This document shows, in pieces, positions 39,901 to 57,760 of a DNA stretch of 64,000 bases. Numbering within the stretch: position 1 is the stretch's first letter; each line of letters begins with the position of its first letter. Both the position numbers and the translations under genes were made by a program. Source of the stretch: an uncultured delta proteobacterium (GTDB lineage: Bacteria > Desulfobacterota > Syntrophia > Syntrophales > Smithellaceae); the NCBI GenBank assembly GCA_963753975.1, contig CAVWEH010000002.1:576001-640000 (forward strand). The letters run 5' to 3'. The notes below the pieces were generated by a model that saw only the letters and a list, made by a program, of their open reading frames with translations, was not told where the DNA came from and made no database searches.

Positions 39901-39954
39901 AATCGAAAGACAAAAACCGTAACAAAAAGTCTCAAAGTTAGATCGGAGAATATT

Positions 39955-40926: not shown

Positions 40927-40928
40927 AC

Positions 40929-42389
40929 ATGGCGCGAAAAATTACAATAGATCCCATTACCAGGTTGGAGGGGCATGGAAAAATAGAAATTCTTCTCGAC
41001 GAGAAAGGTGAGGTAACGGATGCCTTCTGGCAGGTTACTGAACTGCGTGGTTTTGAGCGCTTCTGCCTCGGCAGACCCGCGGAAGAGATGCCGAGAATCG
41101 TACCGAATATATGCGGGGTATGCCCTTCCGCGCACCATATGGCTGCCACCAAGGCCCTCGACGACCTCTACAATGTGGAGCCCACGCCTGCCGCACGGCT
41201 GATCAGGGAACTGGAATTTAACGCCTTCTATATTGAGGACCATTATATCCACTTTTTCTTCCTGGCCGCCCCCGACTTCGTCGTCGGTCCGGACGCCGAT
41301 CCAAAAGAGCGGAATATCCTTGGCGTCATCGGCAAAGTGGGGAAGGAAATAGGGCTGAAGGTCATTGAGGTCAGAAAAAGAAACCGGGATATCATACGGC
41401 ACATCTTCACCAAGGCGCCGCACCCGGAAGGCGGGCTCGCCGGTGGCGTACCGCGGGGATTTACCGAGCAGGACCGCAAATGGGTGAAAGATACCGCTGT
41501 ATTTTCTCTCGACTTCGCCAAGTTCGCCATTCAGCTATTCAAGGATGTCGTGCTGGCAAATAAGTCTTATGTGGCTCTGATCCTCAATGATGCCTACAAA
41601 CTGAAGACTTACTACATGGCCCTGGTGGATGAGAACGACCGGGCTACGTTTTACGACGGAGTGGTCAAAGTCATCGATCCGGAAGGCAAGGAATATGTGA
41701 GATTCGCCCCCCGGGACTACGATAAGTATATCGGCGAATGGGTGGAGCCGTGGACCTACATCAGGCTTAACCATTTAAGGCAGCTTGGCTGGCAGGGACT
41801 GAAGGAAGGAAACGGCACATCGCTCTACCGTGTCGCCCCCCTTGCTAGGCTTAACGTAGCCGATGCCATGCAAACCCCGCTGGCACAGAAGGAGGCGGAG
41901 ATCATGTTCGATACCCTGGGAGGAAAACCCGCTCATCAGACACTCGCCACCCACTGGGCGCGCCTCATCTGCGCGTTACAGGCGGCGGAAAACAACGTGA
42001 TCATCGCAGATGAACCTCAACTTACCAGCAAGGACATCCGAAACATGAACCTCAAACTGAGAAACAAAGGCGTAGGCTGCGTGGAAGCTCCCCGTGGAAC
42101 GCTCTTCCATCATTACGAAACCGACGATAAAGGCATCCTCACGAAGGTTAACCTCATCGTAGCCACGCAGAATAATGCCGCTCCCATCTGCCTGTCGGTA
42201 AAAAAGGCCGCCAAGGAATTCGTCCATGGCCCGGACGTGAAAGAGGGTTTCCTGAACATGGTGGAAATGGCCTTCAGGGCTTACGATCCTTGCCTCTCCT
42301 GCGCCACACACTCTCTGCCGGGGACAATGCCTCTGGATGTAAAGATCAGAGATCATGAAGGCAAAGTAATCAGGGAGATCAGCCGCTGA
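40929..42389 (+). CDS. mvhA: [NiFe]-hydrogenase group 3c large subunit
   Basis: TRLEGH, ICGVC, EAPRG, RAYDPCLSCATH plus C-terminal extension. Confidence 0.88.
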   Translation: MARKITIDPITRLEGHGKIEILLDEKGEVTDAFWQVTELRGFERFCLGRPAEEMPRIVPNICGVCPSAHHMAATKALDDLYNVEPTPAARLIRELEFNAFYIEDHYIHFFFLAAPDFVVGPDADPKERNILGVIGKVGKEIGLKVIEVRKRNRDIIRHIFTKAPHPEGGLAGGVPRGFTEQDRKWVKDTAVFSLDFAKFAIQLFKDVVLANKSYVALILNDAYKLKTYYMALVDENDRATFYDGVVKVIDPEGKEYVRFAPRDYDKYIGEWVEPWTYIRLNHLRQLGWQGLKEGNGTSLYRVAPLARLNVADAMQTPLAQKEAEIMFDTLGGKPAHQTLATHWARLICALQAAENNVIIADEPQLTSKDIRNMNLKLRNKGVGCVEAPRGTLFHHYETDDKGILTKVNLIVATQNNAAPICLSVKKAAKEFVHGPDVKEGFLNMVEMAFRAYDPCLSCATHSLPGTMPLDVKIRDHEGKVIREISR

Positions 42390-42399
42390 GAACAAATTT

Positions 42400-42915
42400 A
42401 TGAAAATACTTATCCTCGGTATGGGCAACCCCATCCTGTCAGACGACGGTGTGGGGTTATTGGCAGCAGAAAAGCTCCGGCACAGAATCCCCGGGGCGGA
42501 TGTGGCGTCAAGCGCCATGATTGGCCTTTCCCTCTTCGATCTGATTATCGGTTACGATGCGTTCTTTATCATCGATGCCATGACCACGCGGAACGGAAAA
42601 CCGGGAGAACTGAAAAAGATCGGCGAAGATGACCGGCACGGCACGCTGCATCTCTTCTCTTCCCACGGTCTGAATATCTTTGAACTGATGGAGCTCGGTG
42701 TTCGCTGTGGTTATGACATGCCCCGACTTTCGGCAGTTTATGGGATTGAAATAGGCAACGAAGTTGCCTTCGGTGAAACACTTTCGTCCTCGCTAAATGA
42801 GAAACTTCCCGCCATAGTCGAAGAAATCATCGACGACATAAACATTATCCTCTTCTCTTGGAAACAGATCAAAACGCCGAACTGCATCATGCTGCGTCAT
42901 TCCGAGAAGCGGTAG
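42400..42915 (+). CDS. Hydrogenase maturation protease
   Basis: LGMGN-ILSDDGVG, IIDA, SSH. Confidence 0.88.
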   Translation: MKILILGMGNPILSDDGVGLLAAEKLRHRIPGADVASSAMIGLSLFDLIIGYDAFFIIDAMTTRNGKPGELKKIGEDDRHGTLHLFSSHGLNIFELMELGVRCGYDMPRLSAVYGIEIGNEVAFGETLSSSLNEKLPAIVEEIIDDINIILFSWKQIKTPNCIMLRHSEKR

Positions 42916-45308: not shown

Positions 45309-45668
45309 TTGAAACTGCGTGAAGTAAAAGAAATACTCAAAGCCGATGTAATTGTCGGCAAAGAAAATTTAGATATGGAAGTCAAAACAGCGTTTGGAGC
45401 CGATTTGATGAGTGACGTTCTGGCCTTCGCGAAAGCGGGCAGTCTTTTGCTAACCGGGCTCACCAATACGCAGGTCATCAGAATCGCCAATGTTCTGGAC
45501 ATTGCCGCTATAATTTTAGTTAGAGGGAAAAAGCCGACGGCAGAAACTATGGATCTGGCCAAAAAACTTCAAATTCCCATTTTAACGACAAAATATATTC
45601 TATTTGAAACGGCGGGGCGTCTTTACGCCAAAGGTATCGTTGGTTGCCTGGAAAAAGTTGAAAATTAA
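45309..45668 (+). CDS. DRTGG domain protein
   Basis: ADLMSDVL, LLTGL-N-Q--R-A, VRGK; TTG start after GAGGAG. Confidence 0.85.
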   Translation: MKLREVKEILKADVIVGKENLDMEVKTAFGADLMSDVLAFAKAGSLLLTGLTNTQVIRIANVLDIAAIILVRGKKPTAETMDLAKKLQIPILTTKYILFETAGRLYAKGIVGCLEKVEN

Positions 45669-45669
45669 A

Positions 45670-46107
45670 GTGTGCGCAACTGAAAGTGCTTTATATAAGA
45701 ATAGTTTTTATATTGAAGGCGGTAATTTTAGCGATGCGGGGACTGTTTCCACCCGTATAAAATCGATCCTCAAACAAATGGGGTTACCCAACGACATCGT
45801 TAGGAAATCAGCCATTATTTGTTATGAAGCGGAAATTAATATCGTTTCTTATGCGAGAAAAGGAAAAATCAATCTTACAGTCACTCCCAAGACTGTCGAA
45901 ATTGAGGTAGTTGACGAAGGACCGGGAATACCCGATATTGAATTAGCAATGCAGGAAGGATATTCCACGGCGAGCCAGCAAATAAGAGAAATGGGTTTTG
46001 GCGCCGGTATGGGACTACATAACATCAAAAGCTATTCCGATACATTCAACATCTCGTCAGAAGTGGCCAAAGGAACTTTCTTGAAAATGATTATTAACAC
46101 CCAATAA
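45670..46107 (+). CDS. Anti-sigma-factor-like Ser/Thr kinase (RsbW/HATPase_c)
   Basis: YEAEINI, DEGPGI, GYSTA---IREMGFGAGMGL. Confidence 0.85.
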   Translation: MCATESALYKNSFYIEGGNFSDAGTVSTRIKSILKQMGLPNDIVRKSAIICYEAEINIVSYARKGKINLTVTPKTVEIEVVDEGPGIPDIELAMQEGYSTASQQIREMGFGAGMGLHNIKSYSDTFNISSEVAKGTFLKMIINTQ

Positions 46108-46124
46108 CACCCTCAAGGTTTATC

Positions 46125-46466
46125 ATGGATATTGAAACTATTGTTAAAAAATTTAATTTAAAAGTAAGGTCTGCGTCAGACAGACTTAAGAATAATGTCA
46201 CAGGAGGTTACACGGGAGATCTCTTAAGCGATGTAATGGCAAATTCTCACGAGGGAGATATCTGGATAACAAGACAGGTGCACCAAAATATAGTTGCCAT
46301 AGCCACGTTGAAAGAACATGCTGGTATAATTCTGGTTAATTCCTGCGAACCGGCCAGGGAAACGCTGGAAAAAGCCGCTCAAGAAAACGTGCCCATCATG
46401 GTTTCCAACTTGTCCGCGTTCGAGCTGACGGGCAAAATTTACAACTTGCTGGCAGAAAAAAAATAG
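46125..46466 (+). CDS. DRTGG domain protein
   Basis: GGY-GDLLSDVM, WIT-Q-H-NIVA-A. Confidence 0.85.
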   Translation: MDIETIVKKFNLKVRSASDRLKNNVTGGYTGDLLSDVMANSHEGDIWITRQVHQNIVAIATLKEHAGIILVNSCEPARETLEKAAQENVPIMVSNLSAFELTGKIYNLLAEKK

Positions 46467-46537
46467 TCGCAGATGTATCGGCTTTTTATTAGAGCCGTCT
46501 GCCTATGGCCATTTTTGGTTAATTCCGAAAAAAGACG

Positions 46538-47278
46538 ATGCTTAAAGTTTTTTATTGTGATTTCCATATTCACACTTGCCTATCGCCTTGCGCCGATCTG
46601 GATATGCACCCCCAAGCCCTGGTAGAAAAAGCCCTCGCAGCAAAACTCGATATCATCGCTATCTGCGATCACAACTCTTCCGAAAACGTACCTTATGTTA
46701 TCAAGGCGGCGGAAGGAAAAAATCTAAAAATATTGCCGGGAATGGAAATAACGACAAGCGAAGAAGTGCATCTCATCGCCATTTTTAATTCCTTGTCCGA
46801 TCTGGCGGCGCTGCAAGTGCTTGTGTATCAACACTTGGCGGGTACAAACGATGAGCAAAAGTTCGGTGTTCAGGCGATTGTCAACGAGAAGGGCGAAGTG
46901 GAAGGAATAAACGATAAATTATTAATCGGCGCCACCGATCTTCCGTTAAATGAATTATTGAATTATTTACATGAACTGAACGGATTGGCCGTAGCGGCGC
47001 ATATTGACAGGGAAAGCTTCAGCGTTTTGAGCCAACTGGGCTTCATCGATGAAAAGACGCATTTTGACGCATTGGAGATAACAGCGGCAACAGGATTTGC
47101 ACAGGCAAGGGTCAAATATAAAGAATTGAGTAATTATTCTTTTATCGTGTCGTCCGATGCCCACTTTTTGAAAGACATCGGGAAGGCGGCAACGAAAATT
47201 GTCCTTGAGGAGCCGACCTTCGCCGAATTGAAAATGGCCTTCGCCGGACAAAAAGGCCGTCACATTCTGGAGCAATAA
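46538..47278 (+). CDS. PHP-family phosphoesterase
   Basis: D-HIHTCLSPC, DHN, GME---EEVH, AHIDR, SDAH. Confidence 0.88.
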   Translation: MLKVFYCDFHIHTCLSPCADLDMHPQALVEKALAAKLDIIAICDHNSSENVPYVIKAAEGKNLKILPGMEITTSEEVHLIAIFNSLSDLAALQVLVYQHLAGTNDEQKFGVQAIVNEKGEVEGINDKLLIGATDLPLNELLNYLHELNGLAVAAHIDRESFSVLSQLGFIDEKTHFDALEITAATGFAQARVKYKELSNYSFIVSSDAHFLKDIGKAATKIVLEEPTFAELKMAFAGQKGRHILEQ

Positions 47279-47826
47279 TGCTGGAGCTTGCCGAGCACAT
47301 TCTCGACATTGCCGAAAACTCCGTTCGCGCCGGTGCCAAGATAGTGGAAATTGTCATCAACGAGGATTCGGCAAAAGATTTGCTCACTATTGAAATCAAC
47401 GATAACGGCAGTGGAATGACAAAAGAAGAAATTAAAAAAGTTGAAGATCCGTTTTATACGACAAAAACCGTGCGGCGGGTGGGATTGGGAATTCCTCTAC
47501 TGGCCAACGCCGTCGCAATGGCCGGCGGCTCTCTCAGCCTGAAATCCGCAAAAGGAAAGGGAACCAAACTTACAGCGACCTTTCAACTCAGTCATTTAGA
47601 CAGGCAACCCCTGGGAAATATTACGACGACAATGCTGACTCTTATTGCCGGAAATTCAGATATTGACTTTATTTACAAACATAGGCATAGTGACCGGCGG
47701 TTCATATTGGACACGCGTCAGATACGTAAAGAAATCGAGGATGTACCCATTAATCATCCTGAAATAATTAAGTATATTCGGGGCGTTATTGACGAAGGAC
47801 TTCGCGAAATAAAACCTACGGCCTGA
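47278..47826 (+). CDS. Histidine kinase-like ATPase
   Basis: ENSV-AGA, DNG-GM, DPFYTT, GLG-PLL, H-DR-PLG. Confidence 0.85.
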   Translation: MLELAEHILDIAENSVRAGAKIVEIVINEDSAKDLLTIEINDNGSGMTKEEIKKVEDPFYTTKTVRRVGLGIPLLANAVAMAGGSLSLKSAKGKGTKLTATFQLSHLDRQPLGNITTTMLTLIAGNSDIDFIYKHRHSDRRFILDTRQIRKEIEDVPINHPEIIKYIRGVIDEGLREIKPTA

Positions 47827-47853: not shown

Positions 47854-48349
47854 ATGAAAGCGGAAGATAATGAACTTTTAAATGATTTTACACCGGAACA
47901 GGTAGCCGAACTCGACAAAATTATCACGCAAGCACAAAGGCAAACCCGGCGGATTGATTCCGGTGCTGGAAGAAGCGCAAGTGGCTCTGGAATACCTGCC
48001 CATGTCCGTGCAAAAAAAGATTGCCCAAGAATTGAATTTGCCTTTGAGCCGTGTTTACGGCGTTGTCACCTTTTATTCATTCTTCACCATGACACCGCGC
48101 GGTAAGCACACTGTCCGTGTTTGCCTGGGCACAGCTTGTTATGTCCGCGGCGGTAAAGCCATTAAGGAAACTCTCGAGAAAGAATTCGGCATTAAAGAGG
48201 GCGAAACCACTCCGGATAGAATGTTCACACTGGAAACAATCCGCTGTTTGGGCGCCTGCGGCCTGGGGCCTGTGGTTGTTGTGGATGAAGATGTGCATGG
48301 CCGGATGAAGCCATCCAAAATCAAGGAAATGATGGTTCAATATAGATAG
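47854..48349 (+). CDS. HydC/NuoE-like [2Fe-2S] subunit, split by a +1 frameshift near 47930
   Basis: LIPVL, GVVTFYSFF, CLGTAC, CLGAC. Confidence 0.88.
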
Positions 48350-48388
48350 CGCATTTTTTGCAAGCAAAAAAAATAGGAGGAAACGCCG

Positions 48389-48772
48389 ATGGCGAAATTA
48401 ACTATAGATGATTTAAAAAAAATAAAAGAAAAAGTGCATAAGGAAATGTCTCTGCGGGACGGCGATCGCCGCGTCAAAGTTACAGTTCATATGGGAACCT
48501 GCGGTATCGCTTCCGGCGCCAAAGAGGTCATGGATACACTATTGCAGGAAATTGAGGCCGCCGGCGCGAATGACGTTGTCGTAACCACTTCGGGCTGTAT
48601 GGGATTATGCAGCCGCGAACCTCTGGTTACCGTGGAAGTATTAAACCAGGAACCGATAAAGTACGAATATATGAACCCCAACAAAATGAGGCAGGTGTTT
48701 AAAAGGCACATTTTGGCGGGAGAAATTCAGACGCCCTTTGTTCTGGCAAAAGGCGCTGAAGTAATCAAATGA
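48389..48772 (+). CDS. Thioredoxin-like [2Fe-2S] ferredoxin (HydD/HndB-like)
   Basis: MGTCGIASGA, GC-GLC--EP. Confidence 0.85.
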   Translation: MAKLTIDDLKKIKEKVHKEMSLRDGDRRVKVTVHMGTCGIASGAKEVMDTLLQEIEAAGANDVVVTTSGCMGLCSREPLVTVEVLNQEPIKYEYMNPNKMRQVFKRHILAGEIQTPFVLAKGAEVIK

Positions 48773-48837
48773 TTTTTTCGCCTATCATGCTTTAGATGCT
48801 GAATGCATGATAATTTCTCAAGGAGGATGTAGGCTAA

Positions 48838-51800
48838 ATGAAGGTTTTTCGTTCACACTTATTGATCTGCGGAGGCACGGGTTGTCAATCTTCCGGCAGT
48901 CATGCCGTAAAAACAGCTTTGTTGGAAGAGGTCGATAAAAGGGGATTGGCTGAAGAAATAAAGATTGTGGAAACAGGTTGTAACGGTTTTTGCGCTTTGG
49001 GTCCCATTATGGTTGTTTACCCCGAAGGCGTCATTTACGTATCTTTAAAGCCGGAAGATATCCCGCAATTAGTCGAAGAACACTTAATCAAAGGAAGGGT
49101 CTTAAAACGGCTTTTATACAGAGAACCCGTTACCGATCAGATTATTCCTACAATGCAGGATATTCCCTTTTTTGCTCTTCAGGAATTGCGGGTGTTGCGG
49201 AACCGCGGATTAATTGATCCCGAAAAAATAGATGAATATATCGCCCGTGACGGTTACGCCGGTATGGCCAAAGCGCTTACGGAAATGACCCCGGAGCAAA
49301 TTATTCAAGAAATTCTTAATTCCGGTTTACGCGGGCGCGGCGGAGCGGGATTTCCCACTGGACTGAAATGGAAGTTTGCCTCCCAGTCCAAAGGTGATGT
49401 TAAATATGTTTTGTGCAACGCCGACGAAGGCGACCCGGGCGCTTTCATGGATAGAAGCGTGCTGGAAGCAGATCCTCACGCCGTCCTGGAAGGAATGGTC
49501 ATCGCGGCCAAAGCCATCGGCTCTCATCACGGATACATTTATTGCCGCGCTGAGTATCCCTTGGCCATTCACCGTTTAAATGTCGCCATTGCCCAGGCCA
49601 AAGAAGCCGGATTACTAGGCAAAGATATCTTGGGCACGGGTTTTGATTTTGATCTGGAGATTTACCAGGGAGCCGGCGCTTTTGTCTGCGGTGAGGAAAC
49701 AGCGCTGATGACTTCCATTGAAGGAAAAAGAGGCATGCCGCGGCCGAGACCACCCTTCCCCGCCGTTGCCGGACTTTGGCAAAAGCCCAGCATCCTGAAT
49801 AACGTGGAAACTCTGGCTAATATCGGCCAGATTATTTTACGCGGCGCCAAGTGGTATGCTTCTGTGGGCACGGAAAAAAGCAAAGGAACAAAGGTTTTTG
49901 CTCTTACCGGAGATGTCGCCAATGTCGGTCTGGTGGAAGTTCCTATGGGAACGACATTAGGCACCATCGTTTATGATATCGGCGGCGGAATCCCCAAGGG
50001 GAAAAAATTCAAGGCCGCTCAGTTGGGTGGTCCTTCCGGCGGTTGTATTCCCGTGCAGCACCTGAACGCGCCCGTAGATTATGAAAAGGTTGTTGAACTC
50101 GGCGCGATTATGGGTTCCGGCGGCTTGATCGTCATGAACGAAGACAAGTGCGCGGTAGATATGGCGCGCTTTTTTATGGATTTCTGTCAGGATGAATCCT
50201 GCGGCAAATGCACTCCCTGCCGTGAGGGAACAAAACGCATGCTGGATATTTTAACCAATATCACTCTGGCTAAAGGCAAAGAAGGAGATATCGAGCTTCT
50301 CGAAGAAATGGCCGGAGTTATCAAAAATGCAGCTTTATGCGGTCTGGGTCAAACCGCGCCTAACCCGGTACTGAGCACCATTCGTTATTTCCGCAAAGAG
50401 TACGAGGAACATATACGCGAACATCGCTGCCGTGCCGCTGTTTGTTCGGCAATGTTTAAATCTCCCTGCCAGCATACCTGCCCCATTGGCATGGATATAC
50501 CTTCTTATATTGCTCTTGTCAGGGCGGGAAGATTCGATGACGCTTATAAAATATTGCTCTTGACCAACCCCTTCCCGTCTGTTTGCGGAAGAGTCTGCGA
50601 CCATAAGTGCCAGAGCAAGTGCCGCCGCGGCAATCTGGACGAACCTATAGCCATCAAATTTCTGAAAAGATTTATCACGGATAATGCCGGCCGCCCGAAA
50701 ATTGAGCTGGTGCCGCAAACGAGAAAAGAAAAGATCGCCGTGGTGGGAGCAGGTCCGGCTGGACTTACCGCTGCGCGCGACTTGGCTTTAAGAGGTTATA
50801 AGGTAACGGTTTTTGAGGAGCTTCCCCAGCCGGGAGGAATGATGTACTGGGGCATTCCTTCTTATCGCCTGCCCCGTAAAGTATTGGATAAAGAAATCGA
50901 CGACATCCGGGCACTGGGTGTCGAAATCCGTTTGAATACGCGCGTCGGCAAAGATATTACGTTTGCCAAACTGGAAAAAGATTTTCATTATGTTTATCTT
51001 GCCTCGGGAGCGCATAAGAGCCAGAAGATGAATGTCCCCGGCGAGGATTTGAAAAATGTTTTTGGCGGCGTGGAGTTCCTGCGCGATTTTAACGCCAATG
51101 AGGATAAATGGTTAAAAGGCAAAAGCAAGCTGGGTAAAAAAGTTGCTGTTATCGGCGGCGGTAATTCCGCCATCGATGCCGCCCGCATTGCCGTGCGTCT
51201 GGGAGCGGATGTAACGATTCTTTACCGCCGCTTAAGGCAGGATATGCCCGCGGCACCGGAAGAAATCAAAGCCGCCGAAGAAGAAGGAATCAAGATTGAA
51301 TATCTCATTGCCCCGTTAAAAATTGAAGGCACTAAAGAAAAAGTCGGCTCTATTACCTGCCAGCGCATGGTTCTGGGCGACTTTGACTCGAGCGGCCGTA
51401 AAAAACCGGCCGCAATTGCCGGCTCAGAATTTACCTTAAAGGTCGATTCCGTTATCGCCGCCATCGGCCAGATTCCCGATATGAGTTTTATTGATAAAAA
51501 AACCGGCATTACAATAAACAAACGGGATTGTTTTGATGTAGGTAATGACTATAAATCACGCACACCTAACCCCCGCTACTTCGCGGGCGGTGACGCCGTA
51601 ACCGGCCCGGATACCGTAATTGCCGCCATTGCCGCGGGACATCAAGCGGCAGACGATATAGATTCAGCTATCCGCAAGGCCAACAATGAGCCGGCTTATG
51701 AAAAACCGGTGCCGGAAAAAATTGATGTGCCCCTGGTTATTGATGAAGAAACGGTTGAAGCAATCCAAATGATAATGCCGGAAATATCGGACTCTAAACG

Positions 51801-51894
51801 TAAAATGAGTTTTGCGGAAGTGGAATTAGGTTTCAAGAAAGCGGACGCCATTAAAGAAGCATCGCGTTGTTTACGCTGTGACGCTGAATTATAA
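48838..51894 (+). CDS. HydB/NuoF-like FMN-NADH subunit fused to a GltD/NfnB-like FAD domain
   Basis: GRGGAGFPTG, NADEGDPGAFMDR, GGPSGGC, CGKCTPCREG; then CQHTCP, CGRVC, GAGPAG, GGGNSA..YRR, EASRCLRC. Confidence 0.9.
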   Translation: MKVFRSHLLICGGTGCQSSGSHAVKTALLEEVDKRGLAEEIKIVETGCNGFCALGPIMVVYPEGVIYVSLKPEDIPQLVEEHLIKGRVLKRLLYREPVTDQIIPTMQDIPFFALQELRVLRNRGLIDPEKIDEYIARDGYAGMAKALTEMTPEQIIQEILNSGLRGRGGAGFPTGLKWKFASQSKGDVKYVLCNADEGDPGAFMDRSVLEADPHAVLEGMVIAAKAIGSHHGYIYCRAEYPLAIHRLNVAIAQAKEAGLLGKDILGTGFDFDLEIYQGAGAFVCGEETALMTSIEGKRGMPRPRPPFPAVAGLWQKPSILNNVETLANIGQIILRGAKWYASVGTEKSKGTKVFALTGDVANVGLVEVPMGTTLGTIVYDIGGGIPKGKKFKAAQLGGPSGGCIPVQHLNAPVDYEKVVELGAIMGSGGLIVMNEDKCAVDMARFFMDFCQDESCGKCTPCREGTKRMLDILTNITLAKGKEGDIELLEEMAGVIKNAALCGLGQTAPNPVLSTIRYFRKEYEEHIREHRCRAAVCSAMFKSPCQHTCPIGMDIPSYIALVRAGRFDDAYKILLLTNPFPSVCGRVCDHKCQSKCRRGNLDEPIAIKFLKRFITDNAGRPKIELVPQTRKEKIAVVGAGPAGLTAARDLALRGYKVTVFEELPQPGGMMYWGIPSYRLPRKVLDKEIDDIRALGVEIRLNTRVGKDITFAKLEKDFHYVYLASGAHKSQKMNVPGEDLKNVFGGVEFLRDFNANEDKWLKGKSKLGKKVAVIGGGNSAIDAARIAVRLGADVTILYRRLRQDMPAAPEEIKAAEEEGIKIEYLIAPLKIEGTKEKVGSITCQRMVLGDFDSSGRKKPAAIAGSEFTLKVDSVIAAIGQIPDMSFIDKKTGITINKRDCFDVGNDYKSRTPNPRYFAGGDAVTGPDTVIAAIAAGHQAADDIDSAIRKANNEPAYEKPVPEKIDVPLVIDEETVEAIQMIMPEISDSKRKMSFAEVELGFKKADAIKEASRCLRCDAEL

Positions 51895-51935
51895 ATCTTA
51901 TGTGAGCTTATTAAATATTTTGCAAGGAGCAGGAA

Positions 51936-53723
51936 ATGGAGAAAAAAGTACCTTTAACAATAGATGGAAAAAAAGTGGAAGCTTTTGCGGGCCAAACCAT
52001 TTTAGAATGTGCCAATGAAAACGGCATTTTTATCCCCACGCTTTGTAACCATCCTGCACTCTCTCCTATTGGGGCTTGCCGGATGTGTCTGGTAGAAATA
52101 AAAGGGCAACGTAATTTGCAGACCTCGTGTACATTTCCTGTAACCGATGGAATGGAAATACAAACTGATTCCAAGGCGGTAATTGATGCCCGCAAGCTGG
52201 TTCTGGATATGATCTTTTCGGAAAGAAATCATTTTTGTCCCTATTGTGAGATGAGCGGCAATTGCGAGTTGCAGGATCTCGGTTACCGTTATCGCGTTGA
52301 TCACTGGGTATTCCCCACTTATACGAAAGCTTTTCCACTGGATGCCACCCATAAATACTACCTGATGGAACACAACCGGTGCGTCCTTTGCGAAAGATGC
52401 ATTCGTGCCTGCGATGAGCTTGTGGCTAATCACACCCTGGGTTTAAGACAGCGGGGAAGTGAGAGTATGGTTCACGCCGACGGCAATATTCCGCTCGGTG
52501 AATCTACCTGCATATCCTGCGGCACCTGTACTCAGGTTTGTCCAACGGGAGCTCTATTTTACAAAAGAAGCGCTTTTATGGGCAAAGACAGCGTGACTAA
52601 ACAAGTAAAAAGCACCTGCAATCAATGCAGCATCGGCTGTGGTACGGAAATTGTAACACGCGGCGGAAATGTTCTCTGCATTATGGGCGATTGGGATGCT
52701 CCGGTTAATAAAGGGCTACTTTGCAAAATGGGCCGTTTTGAACCCTTATATGACAGCCGCCAGAGACTGACCAAGCCCCTTTTACGCACTAAAGGGAAGT
52801 TCGAAGAAATAAGCTGGGAAAAAGCAATCCAGACGCTGGCCAAGCAGATTAACACAATCAAAGCTCCGGAAATAGGCGTGCTTGCCGGCAGTTATTCCTC
52901 CAACGAAGCACTTTATTTGATTAAAAAATTATTCAAGCAGGAATTGCACGTCTCCAATATCGGTCTCATCAATATGGCGGCACCCAGGATTTTCAACAAA
53001 GCTCAGAGTAAACTGGAAGATATTGCCCAAAGCGATATTATTCTTGTCATCGGTTCCGATCCGCTAAATGACCAGCCGGTCGCTTCCTTCATCATTAAGC
53101 GCGCCGTAGACAAGGGAGCAAGACTTATTGTAGTTGATGATAAGAAAAATGGTTTGGCTCCGTTTGCCTTCCTGAATATCGCTATGGCCGATATAAGCAA
53201 AGCAATGGAAGTTGCCAAAAGAGCCAATAATCCGTTTATTCTTTACGGCGCCAGTATTACCAAACCGGCCCTAGCCGAGCTCAAGAAACTGGAAGATAAA
53301 GCAAAATACATCATCGTCGAATCGGGCGTCAATACCGTAGCGGCAGCGGCATTGGGATTAAATAACGGTTATGATCCCGCCTCCCTCAAACTTGTATATG
53401 TCTTACTGGGTGAGCAAAATTACGCGGGCGACGATCTATTCAAAAAAATTCCTCAAAATGCATTTATCGTGGCACAGGCAAGCTATTTATCGCCTCTCAC
53501 AGAGAGGGCAGACCTTGTGTTACCTGCGGCAATCTGGTCGGAACAAACGAGCAGCTTGACCAATATCGAAGGAAGGATACAGAGTATGAATCGCGCGGTG
53601 GAACCTTTAGGCGATGCTAAACCGGATTGGGAAGCATTGCAATTATTATCAATACAACTGGGCAAGGATATTTCCGTGTCTATAAATGAAGCTTCAGCTG
53701 AAGTGATCAAGTCTCTTAAATGA
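51936..53723 (+). CDS. HydA/NuoG-like Fe-S subunit without H-cluster (degenerate molybdopterin-oxidoreductase fold)
   Basis: IPTLC..GACRMC, H-CPYC---G-C, two CxxCxxCxxxC, CNQCSIGC...LC; no H-cluster motifs. Confidence 0.85.
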   Translation: MEKKVPLTIDGKKVEAFAGQTILECANENGIFIPTLCNHPALSPIGACRMCLVEIKGQRNLQTSCTFPVTDGMEIQTDSKAVIDARKLVLDMIFSERNHFCPYCEMSGNCELQDLGYRYRVDHWVFPTYTKAFPLDATHKYYLMEHNRCVLCERCIRACDELVANHTLGLRQRGSESMVHADGNIPLGESTCISCGTCTQVCPTGALFYKRSAFMGKDSVTKQVKSTCNQCSIGCGTEIVTRGGNVLCIMGDWDAPVNKGLLCKMGRFEPLYDSRQRLTKPLLRTKGKFEEISWEKAIQTLAKQINTIKAPEIGVLAGSYSSNEALYLIKKLFKQELHVSNIGLINMAAPRIFNKAQSKLEDIAQSDIILVIGSDPLNDQPVASFIIKRAVDKGARLIVVDDKKNGLAPFAFLNIAMADISKAMEVAKRANNPFILYGASITKPALAELKKLEDKAKYIIVESGVNTVAAAALGLNNGYDPASLKLVYVLLGEQNYAGDDLFKKIPQNAFIVAQASYLSPLTERADLVLPAAIWSEQTSSLTNIEGRIQSMNRAVEPLGDAKPDWEALQLLSIQLGKDISVSINEASAEVIKSLK

Positions 53724-53737
53724 AAGGAGAAGCCTAG

Positions 53738-54283
53738 ATGGCAAAAGTCAAGATAGCGACAGACTGGTTAGCAGGCTGCGCCGGATGTCATATGTCGTTA
53801 CTGGATATTGATGAGCGTATTGTAGGGCTATCGGAATTGGTTGAATTTACGTCAAGTCCGATAACAGACCTCAAGCATCCGCCTAAATCAGGCGTAACCG
53901 TGGGTATTCTGGAAGGAGCTATCTGCAACACTCACAATATTGAAGTCGCCAAGCAAATGCGCGAACGCTGCGATATCCTCATTGCAGTTGGCGACTGCGC
54001 AACATTCGGCGGTGTTCCGGCCATGCGTAATCTGGTGGGTACTGATGTGGCCTTAAAGCGTGCGTATCTGGAAACGGAAAGCACTGTTGATGGAGTTATT
54101 CCGGATTCTTTGGAGCTGGGAAGGCCTCTGGATTTTGTCGTGGGAGTTGACAAAATCGTCAAAGTTGATCTGTTCATTCCGGGTTGTCCGCCGAGGGCGG
54201 ATGCATTTTATTATGCCTTAACGGAGTTGCTTGCGGGTCGCACACCGGTAATATTGCCGCCCGAAGTATTTACATATGATTAG
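53738..54283 (+). CDS. [NiFe]-hydrogenase small subunit (HydS/HoxY-like)
   Basis: WLAGCAGCHMS, GDCA--GGVP, IPGCPP; proximal cluster only. Confidence 0.88.
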   Translation: MAKVKIATDWLAGCAGCHMSLLDIDERIVGLSELVEFTSSPITDLKHPPKSGVTVGILEGAICNTHNIEVAKQMRERCDILIAVGDCATFGGVPAMRNLVGTDVALKRAYLETESTVDGVIPDSLELGRPLDFVVGVDKIVKVDLFIPGCPPRADAFYYALTELLAGRTPVILPPEVFTYD

Positions 54284-54295
54284 AGGAGAACATTT

Positions 54296-55724
54296 ATGGG
54301 TCGGAAGATAACTATTGAACCTGTAACACGTATTGAAGGCCACGGACGTGTAACAATACATCTGGATGATCAAGGTGCGGTGGAACAAACTTTTTTCCAC
54401 GTTGACGAATTCCGTGGTCTGGAAAAATTCTGCGAAGGGCGTCCGTATTATGAAATGCCGCAAATTACACAACGCATATGCGGAATCTGCCCGATCAGCC
54501 ATCACCTGGCAGCGTGCTAAAGCCGGGGATGCAATTTCTCGTGTCGAGCCTCCGCGTCCGGCCAAATTATTGCGCGAGTTGATGCACATGGGACAGGTTG
54601 TTCAGTCGCACGGCATGCATTTTTTTCATCTGGCGGCGCCGGATCTGCTCTTTGGCTTTGATGCGGATCCCGCAACGCGTAATGTTTTCAGAATAATTAA
54701 GGAAAATCCAAAACTGGCACTGAAGGCCGTGAACATGCGCCGCTATGGTCAACAGATCATAGAGCGGCTGGGCGGAAAACGCGTTCATGCGAATTTTGCG
54801 GTTCCCGGCGGAGTCAATGCTCCATTGACTGAAGAAAATCGTAAAGCCATAGCATCCGAACTAAAGACGATGACTGCAACAGCTCAGGAGGCGATAAGCA
54901 TAGCTAAAGGCTGGCTCGAAGCCAATCAGGAAACGGCAGCAACTTTTGCCTCTTTTCCTTCCAGTTATATGGGGCTGGTGGATGCCGAAGGAGGTCTGCA
55001 GCTGTATGACGGTGAAATTCGCGTGAAAGACGCGCAAGGCAATTTTCTGGCTCAGTTTAAGCCGGAGCACTATCTATCTTTTATTGCCGAACACGTTGAA
55101 CGGTGGTCCTTTTTGAAGTATCCTTACCTGCGTAAGATGGGCTTTCCCCAGGGTTTCTATCGCGTTGGACCATTGGGCAGACTGAATGTCATTGATAAAA
55201 TCGGCACACCCCTGGCGCAGGAAGAATTCAAACTCTTCCGACAAATCAATAGCGGCATGCCTGTAGAAGGTTCTCTGTACTATCACTACGCGCGTATGAT
55301 TGAAGCTCTTTATGGTGTGGAACGTATTGGCCAGTTACTGGATGATCCGGATATTATGTCCAACAATGTTCGCGCCTATCCGCCGCTTTCGCAGGTTCCT
55401 AGTCAGGGTGTGGGTGTCATTGAAGCACCTCGCGGAACGCTTTTCCATGACTACAGCACAGATGAAAACGGTGTTTTGACCAGAGTTAATCTTATTGTGG
55501 CCACCGGCAATAATAATTGGGCCATGCATACTGCAGCCGGAGCCGTGGCTAAAGCTTGTGTTGACGGCACAAGATTGACTGAAGGAATGCTAAACAGAGT
55601 GGAGGCGGCTATTCGTTGCTATGACCCCTGTTTGTCGTGTTCCACGCATGCCTTAGGCAAAATGCCGCTGGAAGTTACATTGCTCGCGGCAGATGGCACC
55701 GTTCTTGATCGCATCAGCCGTTAA
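54296..55724 (+). CDS. [NiFe]-hydrogenase large subunit (HydL/HoxH-like), split by a +1 frameshift near 54515
   Basis: [33 protein letters not shown]. Confidence 0.9.
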
Positions 55725-55851: not shown

Positions 55852-56068
55852 CACGGGTATGAACCTCAAAGCAAGCAAGCTTTGGAAACAAATTCCGCAG
55901 CAAGCTGCGGGGTATTAAACCCTCCGCTTCGCGGGATAATTTCCAATAGCCTTTGGCTATTGGATAGTTCGACTTACAAATTTCATTCTGCTGCGCTTAT
56001 GAAATTTGAGTCTCACTACAACTAACGCTTCCTATAGTCAGCGAGTCTCATTAAATTGGAGTTTCACC
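55852..56068 (-). repeat. Composite repeat element R8 (truncated, short and full core units, all tail modules)
   Basis: Minus strand agtgagactc-aaatttcat-aagcgcagcaga-atgaaattt-gtaagtcgaact | atccaatagccaaaggctattgga | atcccgcgaagcggagggt | ccgcagcttgctgcgg ... ttcatacccgtg. Confidence 0.9.
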
Positions 56069-56074
56069 AATAAA

Positions 56075-56569
56075 ATGGATTCCAAAACTATTATCATTGG
56101 ATATGGCAATATAGACCGCGCAGACGACGGCGTTGCCTTTGCCGTAATAAATGAGCTGCGCCGTCAACTGGGCCAGAAAATGCTGGAAGAGGGTGATACC
56201 GGTTTGGACGAGCTAAATTCCGAAAATGATTCAATTTTTCTATCCCAGCTGGTACCGGAAATTATGGAACTGCTCACGGGCTATAATAGAATAATGTTTG
56301 TTGATGCTCATGTTGGTGCTGATACGGAAGACTTCAACTGTTCACCGGTTCTGGCACAATACACTTCTTCTTCATTTACCCATCATATGACGCCGTCCAC
56401 ACTTTTGGCATTTCTCCAGACTATGTATCAGTGCGAACCGGAAGCGCATTTAATCTCCATACGCGGTTACGATTTTGATTTTAAGAGAACCCTTTCGCCT
56501 AAGGTGCGGGCGCTTGTGCAACCGGCAGTGAAGGCCATTTTGAAATTGATGAATCAATCACGGGTATGA
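56075..56569 (+). CDS. Hydrogenase maturation protease
   Basis: IIGYGN-DR-DDG, FVDA, THH; start placed at ATG 56075. Confidence 0.85.
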   Translation: MDSKTIIIGYGNIDRADDGVAFAVINELRRQLGQKMLEEGDTGLDELNSENDSIFLSQLVPEIMELLTGYNRIMFVDAHVGADTEDFNCSPVLAQYTSSSFTHHMTPSTLLAFLQTMYQCEPEAHLISIRGYDFDFKRTLSPKVRALVQPAVKAILKLMNQSRV

Positions 56570-57196: not shown

Positions 57197-57760
57197 ATGT
57201 CTGACAATTTTGCTAATCCGGCTCCACTTGGTTTGATGGGTTTTGGAATGACTACCGTTCTTTTAAACATTCATAATGCCGGCTTGTCCGGAATTAGCGC
57301 TGTTATTATGGCAATGGGTATTTTCTATGGGGGAATTGCCCAGATTATCGCAGGCCGTATGGAATTTAAAAAAGGAAACACGTTTGGTACCACCGCCTTC
57401 ACATCTTACGGACTCTTCTGGTTGACGCTTGTGTTTCTCGTTTATTTCAATGGGAAATTCGATATGCCCGTCAACCAGGTGGGATTCATGGCCTGGTATT
57501 TTTTCATGTGGGGGCTCTTTACATTTTTTATGTGGATCGGTACCTGGAAGATCAATCGAGGACTTCAGGTTGTCTTTCTGACGCTGACCATCCTGTTCTG
57601 GATGCTTGCGGCACGTGACGCGTTCGGCTGGACCGGAACATGGGCGATTGTAACCGGCTACGAAGGTATTTTCTGCGGCGCTTCGGCCATTTACTGTGCC
57701 ATGGCGCAGGTGCTCAATGAAAACTTCAAAAGAGTAGTCTTGCCGCTGGGCCAGAAATAG
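57197..57760 (+). CDS. satP: Succinate-acetate transporter, GPR1/FUN34/YaaH family
   Basis: ANPAPLGLMGFGMTT, YGG-AQ, NTFG-TAF-SYG-FW. Confidence 0.93.
   Translation: MSDNFANPAPLGLMGFGMTTVLLNIHNAGLSGISAVIMAMGIFYGGIAQIIAGRMEFKKGNTFGTTAFTSYGLFWLTLVFLVYFNGKFDMPVNQVGFMAWYFFMWGLFTFFMWIGTWKINRGLQVVFLTLTILFWMLAARDAFGWTGTWAIVTGYEGIFCGASAIYCAMAQVLNENFKRVVLPLGQK

What the first reader, a model, noticed from the sequence alone, without database searches (positions are those of the whole stretch)
47854..55724. HydABCSL-like [NiFe]-hydrogenase whose HydB carries an NADP(H)-type flavoprotein in place of the terminal ferredoxin domain
Seen: hydC, hydD, a 1018-aa hydB fusion, an H-cluster-less hydA, and small and large NiFe subunits. 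HydB has the AFM, VFAL and GGPSG residues and the H-x5-C-x4-C site associated with bifurcating HydB. After that site it continues into a GltD/NfnB-like module (GAGPAG; GGGNSA...YRR) rather than the usual 2[4Fe-4S] domain that reduces ferredoxin. Established: NiFe-HydABCSL bifurcating hydrogenases and HydABC-core transhydrogenases exist separately. Inference: a hybrid that links H2 with both NADH and NADPH, with or without ferredoxin, which would matter for syntrophic H2 production.
Basis: partly seen in the sequence, partly recalled or inferred. Interest (0 to 1): 0.7.

Follow-up and report, generated by a model that had tools for sequence, protein, structure and literature searches.

The report
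NiFe hydrogenase with NADPH-module flavoprotein
This peat-type syntrophic bacterium encodes a nickel-iron hydrogenase of the "electron-bifurcating" kind whose NADH-binding subunit carries an NADPH-binding module where relatives carry their ferredoxin-docking domain, a design seen in sequences before but never tested at the bench.

Summary
The operon is real: hydC-hydD-hydB-hydA-hydS-hydL plus a maturation protease. All five structural subunits have the Acetomicrobium mobile NiFe-HydABCSL (PDB 7T2R) as best solved relative. HydB (1018 aa) matches A. mobile HydB over residues 1-542. It then continues into a FAD/NADPH module colinear with the NADPH module of Nfn-Bfu/Stn subunit A, in place of the B3/B4 ferredoxin-like domain.

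Every relative compared lacks both. Other genes of this genome are split too, and dN/dS is low, so assembly error is the likelier cause.

New here:
- The same HydCDB core sits before [FeFe] hydA (36), Sec-fdhA (11), both (1), NiFe genes (2) or no such gene (20) in the 80 closest loci; 10 were too short. The nearest FDH-linked copy is 95% identical.
- Cultured Syntrophus buswellii DM-2 has the fused HydB followed by both [FeFe] and NiFe genes.

The fused HydB is already in print from sequence, in two 2024 papers, and this scan met it before on other DNA. No biochemistry exists. Coupling of H2 to NADH plus NADPH is inference.

The parts
45309..47826 (+). Five upstream genes kept with the hydrogenase core: DRTGG (45309-45668), HATPase-type (45604-46107), DRTGG (46125-46466), PHP (46538-47278), HATPase-type (47278-47826). 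Probably regulatory.
   Evidence: Pfam. A PHP homologue was found upstream of hydC in 64 of the 80 closest HydB loci. Several of the loci without it have too little upstream DNA.
47854..48349 (+). hydC (NuoE/BfuC-like [2Fe-2S] subunit, the mobile C1 cluster carrier). It is broken here by one inserted base at about 47929-47932.
   Evidence: PF01257 E 1.7e-48 on ORF 47954-48349. The intact 165-aa copy is at L001:7017-7514. The insertion is absent from all 8 relatives aligned and from contigs of 3 DNA runs.
48389..48772 (+). hydD, a small thioredoxin-like [2Fe-2S] protein.
   Evidence: PF01257 at 21 bits, below the cut-off. NCBIfam 2Fe-2S ferredoxin, weak. A tblastn hit lies upstream of HydB in 79 of the 80 closest loci; the exception, L010, starts inside hydB.
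48838..50457 (+). hydB residues 1-540: bifurcating-type NuoF core. It has the N-terminal [2Fe-2S] (C11, C16, C48, C52), the FMN/NADH site, the B1 [4Fe-4S] (C455, C458, C461, C501) and the B2 site (C438, H525, C531, C536).
   Evidence: 7t2r_B aligns 1-542 to 1-542, E 3e-243. B2 ligand numbering follows Feng 2022 (passages). Ligands are conserved in 15-23 of 23 fusion rows; the N-terminal [2Fe-2S] cysteines are the weakest at 15-18.
50458..51894 (+). hydB residues 541-1018: FAD/NADPH module with two [4Fe-4S] sites (C544, C548, C583, C587, C591, C595, C1011, C1014). It replaces the B3/B4 ferredoxin-like domain.
   Evidence: Matches: 9bov_A residues 101-567, E 5.9e-107; 9n5u_A; 8oh5_C; 4ylf_B. The order is permuted relative to NfnB. 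Pfam Fer4_20 and Pyr_redox_2.
51936..53723 (+). hydA: NuoG-like iron-sulfur conduit with a molybdopterin-type fold and no H-cluster domain.
   Evidence: 7t2r_A E 1.3e-93. Pfam Fer2_4, NADH-G_4Fe-4S_3, Fer4, Molybdop_Fe4S4 and Molybdopterin.
53738..54283 (+). hydS, the [NiFe] small subunit.
   Evidence: 7t2r_E E 8.5e-54 over the full length. PF01058.
54296..55724 (+). hydL, the [NiFe] large subunit (RICGICP near the N terminus, DPCLSC near the C terminus). It is broken here by one inserted base at about 54514-54516.
   Evidence: Frames are shown. The intact L001 copy has 7t2r_D as best hit, E 3.3e-170. The insertion is absent from all 12 relatives that cover the site and from 3 DNA runs and 1 RNA run.
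56006..56569 (+). Hydrogenase maturation endopeptidase.
   Evidence: NCBIfam TIGR00072, 60.1 bits against a cut-off of 47.45. No Pfam hit.

Best explanation
The region encodes a soluble group-3 [NiFe] hydrogenase built like the A. mobile electron-bifurcating HydABCSL.

**Proposed path of electrons (inferred).**
- H2 is split at HydL.
- Electrons pass through HydS and the NuoG-like HydA to cluster B1 and the FMN of HydB, where NAD(H) binds.
- In canonical enzymes the second, low-potential branch runs from FMN via the swinging [2Fe-2S] domain of HydC to clusters B3/B4 of HydB, and from there to ferredoxin.
- Here B3/B4 are replaced by the two [4Fe-4S] clusters, the FAD and the NADPH site of an NfnA-type module. 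That branch should therefore end at NADP(H).

**Predicted reaction (inferred).** 2 H2 + NAD+ + NADP+ <-> NADH + NADPH + 2 H+. In a syntroph it most likely runs towards H2. The more reducing NADPH pool would help pull NADH oxidation, and free ferredoxin would not be needed.

**What is shown:** gene order, domain order, cofactor ligands, and conservation.

**What is inferred:** the path, the stoichiometry and the direction.

The HydC-HydD-HydB core is a portable module. In relatives it is joined to [FeFe] HydA, to Sec-formate dehydrogenase, or to the NiFe genes.

The two frameshifts in this window are most likely errors of a long-read assembly.
For: **Homology to HydABCSL.** All five subunits have 7T2R chains as their best solved relatives:
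- HydB 3e-243
- HydA 1.3e-93
- HydL 3.3e-170, using the intact L001 copy
- HydS 8.5e-54

**The junction.** HydB is colinear with bifurcating HydBs up to about residue 540, just past H525/C531/C536. From 541 it is colinear with the NADPH module of NfnA of Nfn-Bfu, 9bov_A 101-567, E 5.9e-107.

**Cofactor sites.**
- Eight cysteines for two [4Fe-4S] clusters are kept in 19-23 of 23 fusion rows down to 34% identity.
- The FAD glycines are kept in 21-22 of 23.
- GGGNxA is kept, the Asn in 16 of 23.
- Y796-R797-R798 are kept in 18, 19 and 23 of 23.
- The bifurcating-type GGPSG marker is present (the marker is described in Losey 2020, passage).

**Published mechanism.** The low-potential branch C1-B3/B4-Fd and the ferredoxin site beside the B3/B4 domain come from passages of PMC12018979 and PMC8880783.

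**Structure model.** The AlphaFold2 model has pLDDT 93.3 and pTM 0.90. With the cores superposed, 5 of the top 14 BfuB rows extend into model residues 598-609.

**Selection.** dN/dS against L001 is 0.058 for hydB, 0.146 for hydA, 0.067 for hydS and 0.071 for hydL after the shift.

**Physiology of this genome (95.1% complete).**
- No Rnf family match.
- No [FeFe] H-cluster domain.
- No Molydop_binding domain.
- A classical NfnAB pair is present.

**Expression in relatives (weak).** Contigs from a peat metatranscriptome cover much of the operon. One 1525-nt record spans 51348-52849, across the hydB to NiFe-type hydA junction.

**Frameshifts as error.**
- Relatives lack both inserted bases.
- The window holds other split genes: Metallophos_2 at 5376-5874 and an XerC/D-type integrase at 26452-27487. 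Elsewhere in the genome CstA is split.
- The contig is 755 kb and the genome lies in 6 contigs.
Against: - No assay of any enzyme with this HydB exists in the papers I searched.
- Greening et al. 2024 assign 'likely ferredoxin' to the same domain of their archaeal HydB (passage).
- PMC11406978 suggests the FAD may be a second bifurcation centre.
- NADPH rather than NADH specificity rests on motif likeness only.
- H2 to NAD+ and H2 to NADP+ are both close to equilibrium. The need for gated coupling is therefore less obvious than with ferredoxin.
- The fold overlap of the module's FeS domain with B3/B4 is only about 12-20 residues beyond the core, and no coordinates could be measured.
- No run holds this strain: the best share of words was 0.18. 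The frameshifts could therefore be real, and the enzyme dead in this cell.
- The inserted bases are not in homopolymers.
- In 32 of 56 HydL loci with enough upstream DNA, hydASL stands without any hydB in cis. The NiFe module therefore does not strictly need this core next to it.
Confidence: 0.5

Rival explanations
1. The FAD/FeS arm still serves ferredoxin. The outer [4Fe-4S] of the GltD-type module reduces free ferredoxin, as the equivalent clusters of NfnSL do. The FAD may act as a second, Nfn-like bifurcation site, so the complex would link H2, NAD(H), NADP(H) and ferredoxin.
For: - The module is homologous to the NfnB/NfnL chains 4ylf_B and 5jca_L. That their FAD bifurcates and their clusters lead to ferredoxin is recalled knowledge, not from a call.
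- Greening 2024 predicts 'likely ferredoxin' at the GltA-like domain of archaeal HydB.
- PMC11406978 raises a second FAD centre.
- The genome has ferredoxin-producing enzymes: POR-type subunits beside a canonical BfuBC.
Against: - The module is closest to, and colinear with, the NfnA module of Nfn-Bfu. The authors of that work treat its FAD as a plain NADPH entry point, not a bifurcation site (PMC9304861 section 5; PMC12018979).
- No NfnS/PyrK-like partner is encoded in the operon.
- The canonical ferredoxin site lies between the HydC C-terminal domain and the B3/B4 domain, and that domain is missing here.
Confidence: 0.2
2. A non-bifurcating hydrogenase with two inputs. NADH at the FMN, or NADPH at the FAD, each reduces the chain independently. 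The module merely widens cofactor use, in the manner of NADP-reactive soluble hydrogenases.
For: - Both nucleotide sites look intact.
- Syntrophs are known to use ferredoxin-independent NADH hydrogenases (Losey 2020, abstract and discussion passages).
- The redox gap between NADH and NADPH is small, so coupling may not pay.
Against: The core keeps every feature that marks bifurcating rather than plain NADH-dependent HydB:
- the N-terminal [2Fe-2S]
- the B2 His/Cys site
- GGPSG
- a separate HydC

Plain NADH-dependent homologues lack clusters B2-B5 (PMC9304861 section 5).
Confidence: 0.2
3. In this particular genome the operon is a recently inactivated pseudogene. The two 1-base insertions are real, and neither HydC nor HydL is made.
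For: - There are two independent frameshifts in one six-gene operon.
- Both inserted bases lie outside homopolymers.
- No sequencing run of this strain could be laid to check them.
Against: - dN/dS after the shifts is 0.071 for hydL and 0.151 for hydC, over dS of 0.16-0.37.
- Unrelated genes are split as well.
- This is the only HydB-linked hydrogenase. No [FeFe] hydrogenase or formate dehydrogenase domain was found in the 95.1% complete genome, so its loss would be costly.
Confidence: 0.2

Closest known systems
Acetomicrobium mobile electron-bifurcating NiFe-HydABCSL (NiFe-Bfu, Type 3; PDB 7T2R/7T30; Feng et al. 2022, PMC8880783)
   Same: - All five subunits are its homologues and each has it as best solved match.
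- HydB aligns residue for residue over 1-542, including the B2 ligands C438, H525, C531 and C536.
- Its operon also holds hydD and a histidine-kinase-like gene.
   Different: - Its HydB ends in a roughly 55-residue ferredoxin-like domain with clusters B3/B4, proposed to reduce ferredoxin. Here that domain is replaced by a 478-residue FAD/NADPH module.
- HydA here is 595 aa, against 692 aa.
Nfn-Bfu / Stn transhydrogenases (S. ovata StnABC 8OH5; C. saccharolyticus NfnABC 9BOV; T. sibiricus NfnABC 9N5U)
   Same: - They carry the same NADPH/FAD/2x[4Fe-4S] module in the same permuted order, with the CxxC pair at the end of the module. 9bov_A 101-567 matches at E 5.9e-107.
- They have the same kind of BfuBC core.
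   Different: - There the module sits in subunit A and delivers the third, mid-potential substrate. Subunit B keeps B3/B4 and reduces ferredoxin.
- Here the module sits on subunit B in place of B3/B4, and H2 is the third substrate.
'Sub-type I' BfuB of group A3 [FeFe]-hydrogenase clusters (PMC11406978, mSystems 2024; sequence and model only)
   Same: It describes the same replacement of the B3/B4 domain by a DPD_II domain plus a FAD/NAD(P)-binding domain (passage). BfuD is also present there.
   Different: - The partner described is an [FeFe] HydA.
- The NiFe group 3d enzymes of that paper lack the extra clusters.
- No assay was done.
Archaeal hybrid [FeFe]/[NiFe] hydrogenase complexes (Greening et al. 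2024, PMC11216029)
   Same: A HydB with a glutamate-synthase-like domain is encoded beside a NuoG-like conduit, HydC and a group-3 NiFe large subunit (passages).
   Different: - Those complexes are defined by a HydA-HyhS fusion protein with an H cluster. Here HydS stands alone, and the genome has no H-cluster domain.
- They are archaeal.
- The authors guess ferredoxin as the acceptor.
NfnSL (NfnAB) transhydrogenase (4YLF, 5JCA)
   Same: The large subunit is homologous to HydB residues 542-945, E 1e-91 to 1e-99.
   Different: - The segment order differs: the CxxC pair is at the N terminus in NfnB.
- NfnSL needs a PyrK-like small subunit, and none is in this operon.
- A separate NfnAB pair lies elsewhere in this genome.

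Membership tests
Bfu family (BfuABC) as defined by Schut et al. 2022 | BfuB has the NuoF FMN domain, the SLBB region and the NuoF [4Fe-4S] domain | tested here: met
   PF01512 E 1.6e-47 and PF10589 E 7.5e-36. SLBB scores 24.6 bits, below its cut-off of 27. GGPSG is at 397. The model aligns to BfuB chains at Z 52-55.
Bfu family (BfuABC) as defined by Schut et al. 2022 | BfuB carries a ferredoxin-type 2x[4Fe-4S] domain (clusters B3/B4); 'invariant BfuBC core' with five clusters in BfuB | tested here: not met
   No Fer4-type family is among the 19 Pfam hits of HydB; Fer4_20 plus Pyr_redox_2 stand in its place. Alignments to nine canonical BfuB chains stop at residues 540-551. InterPro itself was not run.
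Bfu family (BfuABC) as defined by Schut et al. 2022 | N-terminal [2Fe-2S] and the His/Cys B2 site in BfuB; NuoE-like BfuC | tested here: met
   C11, C16, C48, C52 and C438, H525, C531, C536 are present. The B2 ligands are kept in 22-23 of 23 fusion rows and the N-terminal cysteines in 15-18 of 23. hydC matches PF01257, but its frame is broken in this assembly.
NiFe-HydABCSL (A. mobile type) | Five subunits A, B, C, S and L encoded together and homologous to 7T2R chains | tested here: met
   HydC was judged only by Pfam and NCBIfam.
NiFe-HydABCSL (A. mobile type) | Ferredoxin- and NAD-dependent electron bifurcation with H2 | not testable with these tools
   This needs enzyme assays. The domain proposed to dock ferredoxin is absent.
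Group 3 [NiFe] hydrogenase large subunit | N-terminal RxCGxC and C-terminal DPCxxC nickel ligands, with a C-terminal tail for the protease | tested here: met
   RICGICP lies in the frame from 54296. DPCLSCSTH plus a 24-residue tail lies in ORF 54366-55724. The two halves are in different frames here. The protease gene is at 56006-56569.
NADPH module of NfnA (Nfn-Bfu/Stn) | FAD GxGxxG, NADPH GGGNxA...YRR, eight Cys for two [4Fe-4S], permuted order with a terminal CxxC | tested here: met
   The alignment to 9bov_A, 9n5u_A and 8oh5_C is colinear. The C-terminal RCLRC aligns to the N terminus of 4ylf_B. Motifs are and conservation.
NADPH module of NfnA (Nfn-Bfu/Stn) | Module inserted in subunit A (the NuoG-like subunit) | tested here: not met
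   Here it is the C-terminal half of subunit B. HydA has no Pyr_redox or Fer4_20 hit.
'Sub-type I' BfuABC(D) [FeFe]-hydrogenase (PMC11406978) | BfuB with DPD_II plus a FAD/NAD(P) domain in place of B3/B4 | tested here: met
   compared with the passage.
'Sub-type I' BfuABC(D) [FeFe]-hydrogenase (PMC11406978) | Catalytic partner is a group A3 [FeFe] HydA | tested here: not met
   The downstream genes are NiFe-type hydA, hydS and hydL. PF02906 is absent from the genome. By contrast it is met in 37 of the 80 closest loci.
Archaeal hybrid [FeFe]/[NiFe] hydrogenase (Greening 2024) | HydA (H cluster) fused to a HyhS small-subunit domain | tested here: not met
   HydS is a separate 181-aa protein, and there is no H-cluster domain.

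The most novel reading that the evidence does not exclude
This would be a ferredoxin-free electron-confurcating hydrogenase in which both coupled partners are pyridine nucleotides, NADH at the FMN and NADPH at the FAD. It would use the swinging HydC domain of the Bfu machinery to gate electrons between them.

Its HydC-HydD-HydB core would be an interchangeable 'plug'. Syntrophales would dock it, in cis or in trans, onto NiFe hydrogenase, [FeFe] hydrogenase or Sec-formate dehydrogenase modules. In Syntrophus buswellii it would serve two of them in one operon.

That would change the accepted picture that Smithella and Syntrophus 'confurcating' hydrogenases and formate dehydrogenases run on ferredoxin.
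Probability: 0.3. Interest if true: 0.75.

Novelty: new variant of a known kind. Interest (0 to 1): 0.5.

Why it matters
Smithella and Syntrophus degrade fatty acids, alkanes and aromatics at the thermodynamic limit. How they get rid of NADH electrons as H2 or formate sets the H2 level at which they can live.

Published genome readings take their HydABC-type enzymes to be ferredoxin-dependent confurcating enzymes. An example is the Ca. Smithella cisternae paper (abstract).

If the ferredoxin arm is really an NADPH arm, the energy budget and the needed helper enzymes change: NfnAB rather than Rnf. This genome has NfnAB and no detectable Rnf.

The finding also gives the Bfu field a natural experiment on what the low-potential branch can be wired to. 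A cultured strain is available in which to test it.

Tried and rejected
- **Programmed +1 frameshift or recoding at the hydL stop (TGC TAA A).** Rejected. All 12 relatives covering the site have an uninterrupted codon series without the extra base, and so have the contigs of 4 runs.
- **Settling the frameshifts with reads of the same strain.** Not possible. The best run holds 0.18 of the sampled words. The four runs laid hold relatives, not this strain.
- **Fusion as an assembly artefact.** Rejected.
- **Description of the bacterial NiFe form in print.** Not found. Searches run:
  - 'HydABCSL': 9 papers
  - 'Bfu'+'GltD'+'bifurcating': 0
  - 'Smithella'/'NiFe'/'hydrogenase'/'NuoF'
  - 'NuoF'+'GltD'+'hydrogenase': 13
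  - 'Smithella'+'HoxF': 0
  - 'buswellii'+'NiFe'+'hydrogenase': 7
  - 'BfuB'+'NADPH'+'NiFe': 4
  - Passages of PMC5736913, PMC7325909, PMC8892533, PMC5606693 and PMC7382037 mention nothing of it.
  - Supplements were not read; the operon tables of these papers could bear on this.
- **Schut 2022.** The words 'fused', 'fusion', 'glutamate synthase' and 'NfnB' do not occur in its main text.
- **Inferring the ancestral partner of the fused HydB from the tree.** Not attempted. The second half of the rows was picked by HydL likeness, and the root is a midpoint.
- **Measuring cluster-to-cluster distances in the model.** Only aligned ranges could be read.
- **Third NiFe-like hit.** A weak hit at G000:C5:768265-768663 (30% over 143 aa) lies in a stretch of short ORFs. 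I did not resolve it.


Full report
**1. What is there**

On the + strand between 45.3 and 56.6 kb lies one co-directional gene row.
- Five small genes, probably regulatory: DRTGG, HATPase, DRTGG, PHP, HATPase.
- hydC (NuoE-like), 47854-48349.
- hydD (thioredoxin-like 2Fe-2S), 48389-48772.
- hydB, 48838-51894, 1018 aa.
- hydA (NuoG-like, 595 aa), 51936-53723.
- hydS (181 aa), 53738-54283.
- hydL, 54296-55724.
- A hydrogenase maturation protease, 56006-56569. It matches TIGR00072 at 60.1 bits, above its cut-off.

Pfam reads HydB as an N-terminal 2Fe-2S domain, the NuoF FMN domain, the NuoF 4Fe-4S domain, then Fer4_20 and Pyr_redox_2. No ferredoxin-type Fer4 domain is found.

**2. Two broken frames**

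- The hydL frame from ATG 54296 stops right after [15 protein letters not shown], and the rest of the protein follows in the +1 frame.
- hydC changes frame near 47930.
- The locus L001, from a Smithellaceae MAG, is 92% identical in DNA over 10.9 kb. It has both genes intact, at 165 and 475 aa.
- Against L001 the only single-base indels inside genes are these two insertions.
- In a multiple alignment the window reads A[C]GC and T[G]CT where the relatives have one base fewer: 8 relatives at the hydC site and 12 at the hydL site.
- Contigs of relatives from three DNA runs and one RNA run also lack these bases.
- No run holds the window's own strain; the best share of words was 0.18. The point therefore cannot be settled directly.

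I read the insertions as probable assembly errors, for three reasons.
- Unrelated genes are split too. In the window these are Metallophos_2 (5376-5874) and an XerC/D-type integrase (26452-27487). On another contig CstA is split.
- The genome is 2.43 Mb in six contigs, with a 755-kb contig holding the window. That suggests long reads.
- dN/dS against L001 stays low even behind the shifts: hydL 0.071 and hydC 0.151. For comparison, hydB is 0.058, hydA 0.146 and hydS 0.067.

A very recent real inactivation remains possible. I put it near 0.2.

**3. What it is**

Each structural subunit has the A. mobile electron-bifurcating NiFe-HydABCSL (7T2R) as its best solved relative.
- HydB 1-542 against 1-542, E 3e-243.
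- HydA, 1.3e-93.
- HydL, using the intact L001 copy, 3.3e-170.
- HydS, 8.5e-54.

The join in HydB is sharp. Alignments to nine canonical bifurcating HydB/BfuB chains run through EYEEHIREHRCRAAVC and stop at about residue 540-551. That stretch holds H525, C531 and C536, the same numbers as the A. mobile B2 ligands given by Feng et al. (passage).

From residue 541 the protein is colinear with the NADPH module of subunit A of the Nfn-Bfu and Stn transhydrogenases:
- 9bov_A residues 101-567, E 5.9e-107
- 9n5u_A
- 8oh5_C

It is also homologous to NfnB (4ylf_B), but with a permuted order. The last residues of HydB (…EASRCLRC) align to the N terminus of NfnB.

With that C-terminal pair the module has eight cysteines for two [4Fe-4S] clusters: C544, C548, C583, C587, C591, C595, C1011 and C1014.

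In 23 fusion-type rows of alignment A1, down to 34% identity, conservation is as follows:
- The eight module cysteines are kept in 19-23 rows.
- The FAD glycines are kept in 21-22 rows.
- R798 is kept in 23 rows.
- The B1 and B2 ligands are kept in 20-23 rows.
- The N-terminal [2Fe-2S] cysteines are kept in only 15-18 rows.

An AlphaFold2 model built on A1 is confident: pLDDT 93.3, pTM 0.90. Its core superposes on BfuB chains at Z 45-55. In 5 of the top 14 rows the aligned range runs on to model residues 598-609. The FeS part of the module therefore lies roughly where B3/B4 sit, but only some 12-20 extra residues align. This is a weak point, and I could not measure distances.

**4. How it probably works**

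The published picture for Bfu enzymes (passages of PMC12018979; PMC8880783; sections 4-5 of PMC9304861) is this.
- The third substrate feeds electrons through subunit A to B1 and the FMN.
- NAD(H) reacts at the FMN.
- The low-potential branch leaves via the mobile [2Fe-2S] domain of subunit C to B3/B4 of subunit B.
- Ferredoxin binds between that domain and subunit C.

Here the B3/B4 domain is gone and an NADPH/FAD/2x[4Fe-4S] module stands in its place. The simplest reading is that the second branch ends at NADP(H).

The predicted reaction is 2 H2 + NAD+ + NADP+ <-> NADH + NADPH + 2 H+.

In a syntroph it would run towards H2, with the more reduced NADPH pool helping NADH oxidation. The cellular potentials, about -280 mV for NADH and about -370 to -380 mV for NADPH, are partly from the abstract of PMC9304861 and partly recalled.

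The genome context fits a cell short of ferredoxin-regenerating machinery. In a 95.1% complete genome:
- there is no Rnf-family match;
- there is no [FeFe] H-cluster domain;
- there is no Molydop_binding domain;
- a classical NfnAB pair is present;
- a canonical BfuBC lies beside POR subunits, the 'Por-Bfu' of Schut et al..

Everything about path, stoichiometry and direction is inference. Two published guesses differ: 'likely ferredoxin' at this domain (Greening 2024), and a second FAD bifurcation centre (PMC11406978). I keep both as rivals, together with a plain dual-input, non-bifurcating enzyme.

**5. The core is a shared module**

The 80 genome loci closest in HydB (78-96% identity; Smithella, Smithellaceae, Syntrophus and other Syntrophales MAGs) almost all keep hydC and hydD in front of hydB. 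What follows hydB differs:

| Gene within 6 kb downstream | Loci |
|---|---|
| [FeFe] hydA (Fe_hyd_lg_C) | 36 |
| Both [FeFe] hydA and fdhA | 1 |
| Selenocysteine-type fdhA, split at TGA | 11 |
| NiFe hydA-S-L (L001, L074) | 2 |
| None of these, with at least 3 kb available | 20 |
| Too little downstream DNA | 10 |

L002 has a HydB 95% identical to the window's but an FDH downstream. Its DNA likeness to the window ends at about 52045, some 110 bases into hydA.

Looked at from the other side, 56 of the 80 loci closest in HydL have at least 6.5 kb upstream.
- 21 have a fused hydB upstream. This counts L128, which my script missed and Pfam confirmed.
- 32 have hydASL with no hydB in cis. Most Smithella are in this group.
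- 3 have another form: L165 has a canonical 57-residue tail, L117 has an 844-aa HydB with Fer4_20 only, and L154 has a weak core.

In Syntrophus buswellii DM-2 (complete genome) and in an uncultured Syntrophus, the order is hydC-hydD-fused hydB-[FeFe] hydA-NiFe hydA-hydS-hydL.

I built a quick tree of 92 fused HydB sequences.
- 94 sequences were extracted from the 160 loci plus the window.
- Two duplicates were removed.
- ORFs under 950 or over 1100 aa, or broken, were left out.
- The window and L001 are sisters (97), and L002 (FDH) is next (99).
- The NiFe label needs at least 6-7 changes.

The second half of the rows was chosen by HydL likeness, so nothing is said here about the ancestral partner.

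**6. What is known**

- Schut et al. 2022 define Bfu by a BfuB that includes a ferredoxin-type domain, and do not mention a fused form.
- PMC11406978 (2024) describes exactly this replacement in 'sub-type I' BfuB of [FeFe] clusters, from sequence and models.
- Greening et al. 2024 describe archaeal hybrid [FeFe]/[NiFe] complexes whose HydB has a glutamate-synthase-like domain.
- I found no paper on the bacterial NiFe-HydABCSL form, and no assay of the arm in any form. The searches are listed under Tried and rejected; supplements were not read.
- The Ca. Smithella cisternae paper still reads these enzymes as ferredoxin-driven (abstract).
- This scan has reported the same design on other DNA several times, including NiFe operons. 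Those notes led me to the two 2024 papers, which I then checked myself.

**7. Verdict**

- The architecture is a new variant of a known kind: the HydABCSL catalytic side joined to an already noted fused HydB.
- The proposed function is plausible and untested.
- The modular use of the core and the S. buswellii operon are the most useful additions, because they make the question testable in a cultured organism.

Noticed in passing
window 37676-42915 (+): A second [NiFe] hydrogenase cluster lies 5 kb upstream. It holds a 599-aa flavoprotein (Fer4_20, Pyr_redox_2 and a C-terminal 2x Fer4), an MvhD/FlpD-like gene (39379-39900, overlapping the previous ORF), a small subunit (39955-40926), a large subunit (40929-42389) and a maturation protease (42400-42915). 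It resembles Mvh/Hdr-type or group 3 enzymes.
   Followed up: partly
window 5376-5874 (-) and 26452-27487 (-): Two further genes are split into overlapping ORFs in different frames. One is a Metallophos_2 phosphoesterase (profile 2-86 and 86-153). The other is an XerC/D-type integrase (SAM-like N domain and catalytic domain). This is the same kind of damage as in hydC and hydL.
   Followed up: partly
L128:36-10425 (Syntrophus buswellii DM-2, NZ_CP175563.1) and L131: One gene row holds hydC, hydD, a fused 1019-aa hydB, a 608-aa [FeFe] hydA with an H-cluster domain, and then NiFe-type hydA, hydS and hydL. That is two different hydrogenase catalytic modules behind one NADH/NADPH core. It is a bacterial echo of the archaeal 'hybrid' hydrogenases, but without the HydA-HyhS fusion.
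   Followed up: partly
L091-L113 and others (32 of 56 HydL loci with at least 6.5 kb upstream): In most Smithella genomes the NiFe hydA-hydS-hydL trio stands alone. Unrelated genes lie upstream on the other strand, for example an ABC-type protein and a PAS/GGDEF protein in L092, and a tRNA synthetase in L103. The fused hydCDB core lies elsewhere, and in 20 loci it has no catalytic gene beside it. Whether the two pair up in trans is open.
   Followed up: partly
G000:C5:728877-733435 (L087:4878-9436): A canonical NuoE-like gene and a 614-aa HydB with a C-terminal 2x Fer4 domain lie directly behind two POR-type subunits. This is the 'Por-Bfu' arrangement that Schut et al. 2022 predicted for syntrophic Proteobacteria.
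   Followed up: partly
G000:C1 about 254453-256694 (L084:513-2754): A classical NfnAB pair is present: a PyrK-like 278-aa protein and a GltD-like 474-aa protein. A multi-flavin protein of more than 1128 aa with a GltD-like part lies at L083:1042-4425.
   Followed up: no
L087:11378-12344 and L087:2858-3385: CstA is in at least two pieces, and a fumarate hydratase ORF lacks the first 96 profile positions. These are more signs of indel errors, or of decay, in this assembly.
   Followed up: no
window 57197-57760 (+): A GPR1/FUN34/YaaH-family channel gene (acetate/succinate type) lies just downstream of the hydrogenase operon. Several relatives instead have FocA-type formate channels or MFS transporters near the fused hydB.
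   Followed up: no
L002:11449-14149: The Sec-type fdhA behind the 95%-identical HydB is cut at the TGA, as expected. Its second part is further split into two overlapping ORFs (251 and 345 aa), which is probably a frameshift in that long-read MAG.
   Followed up: no
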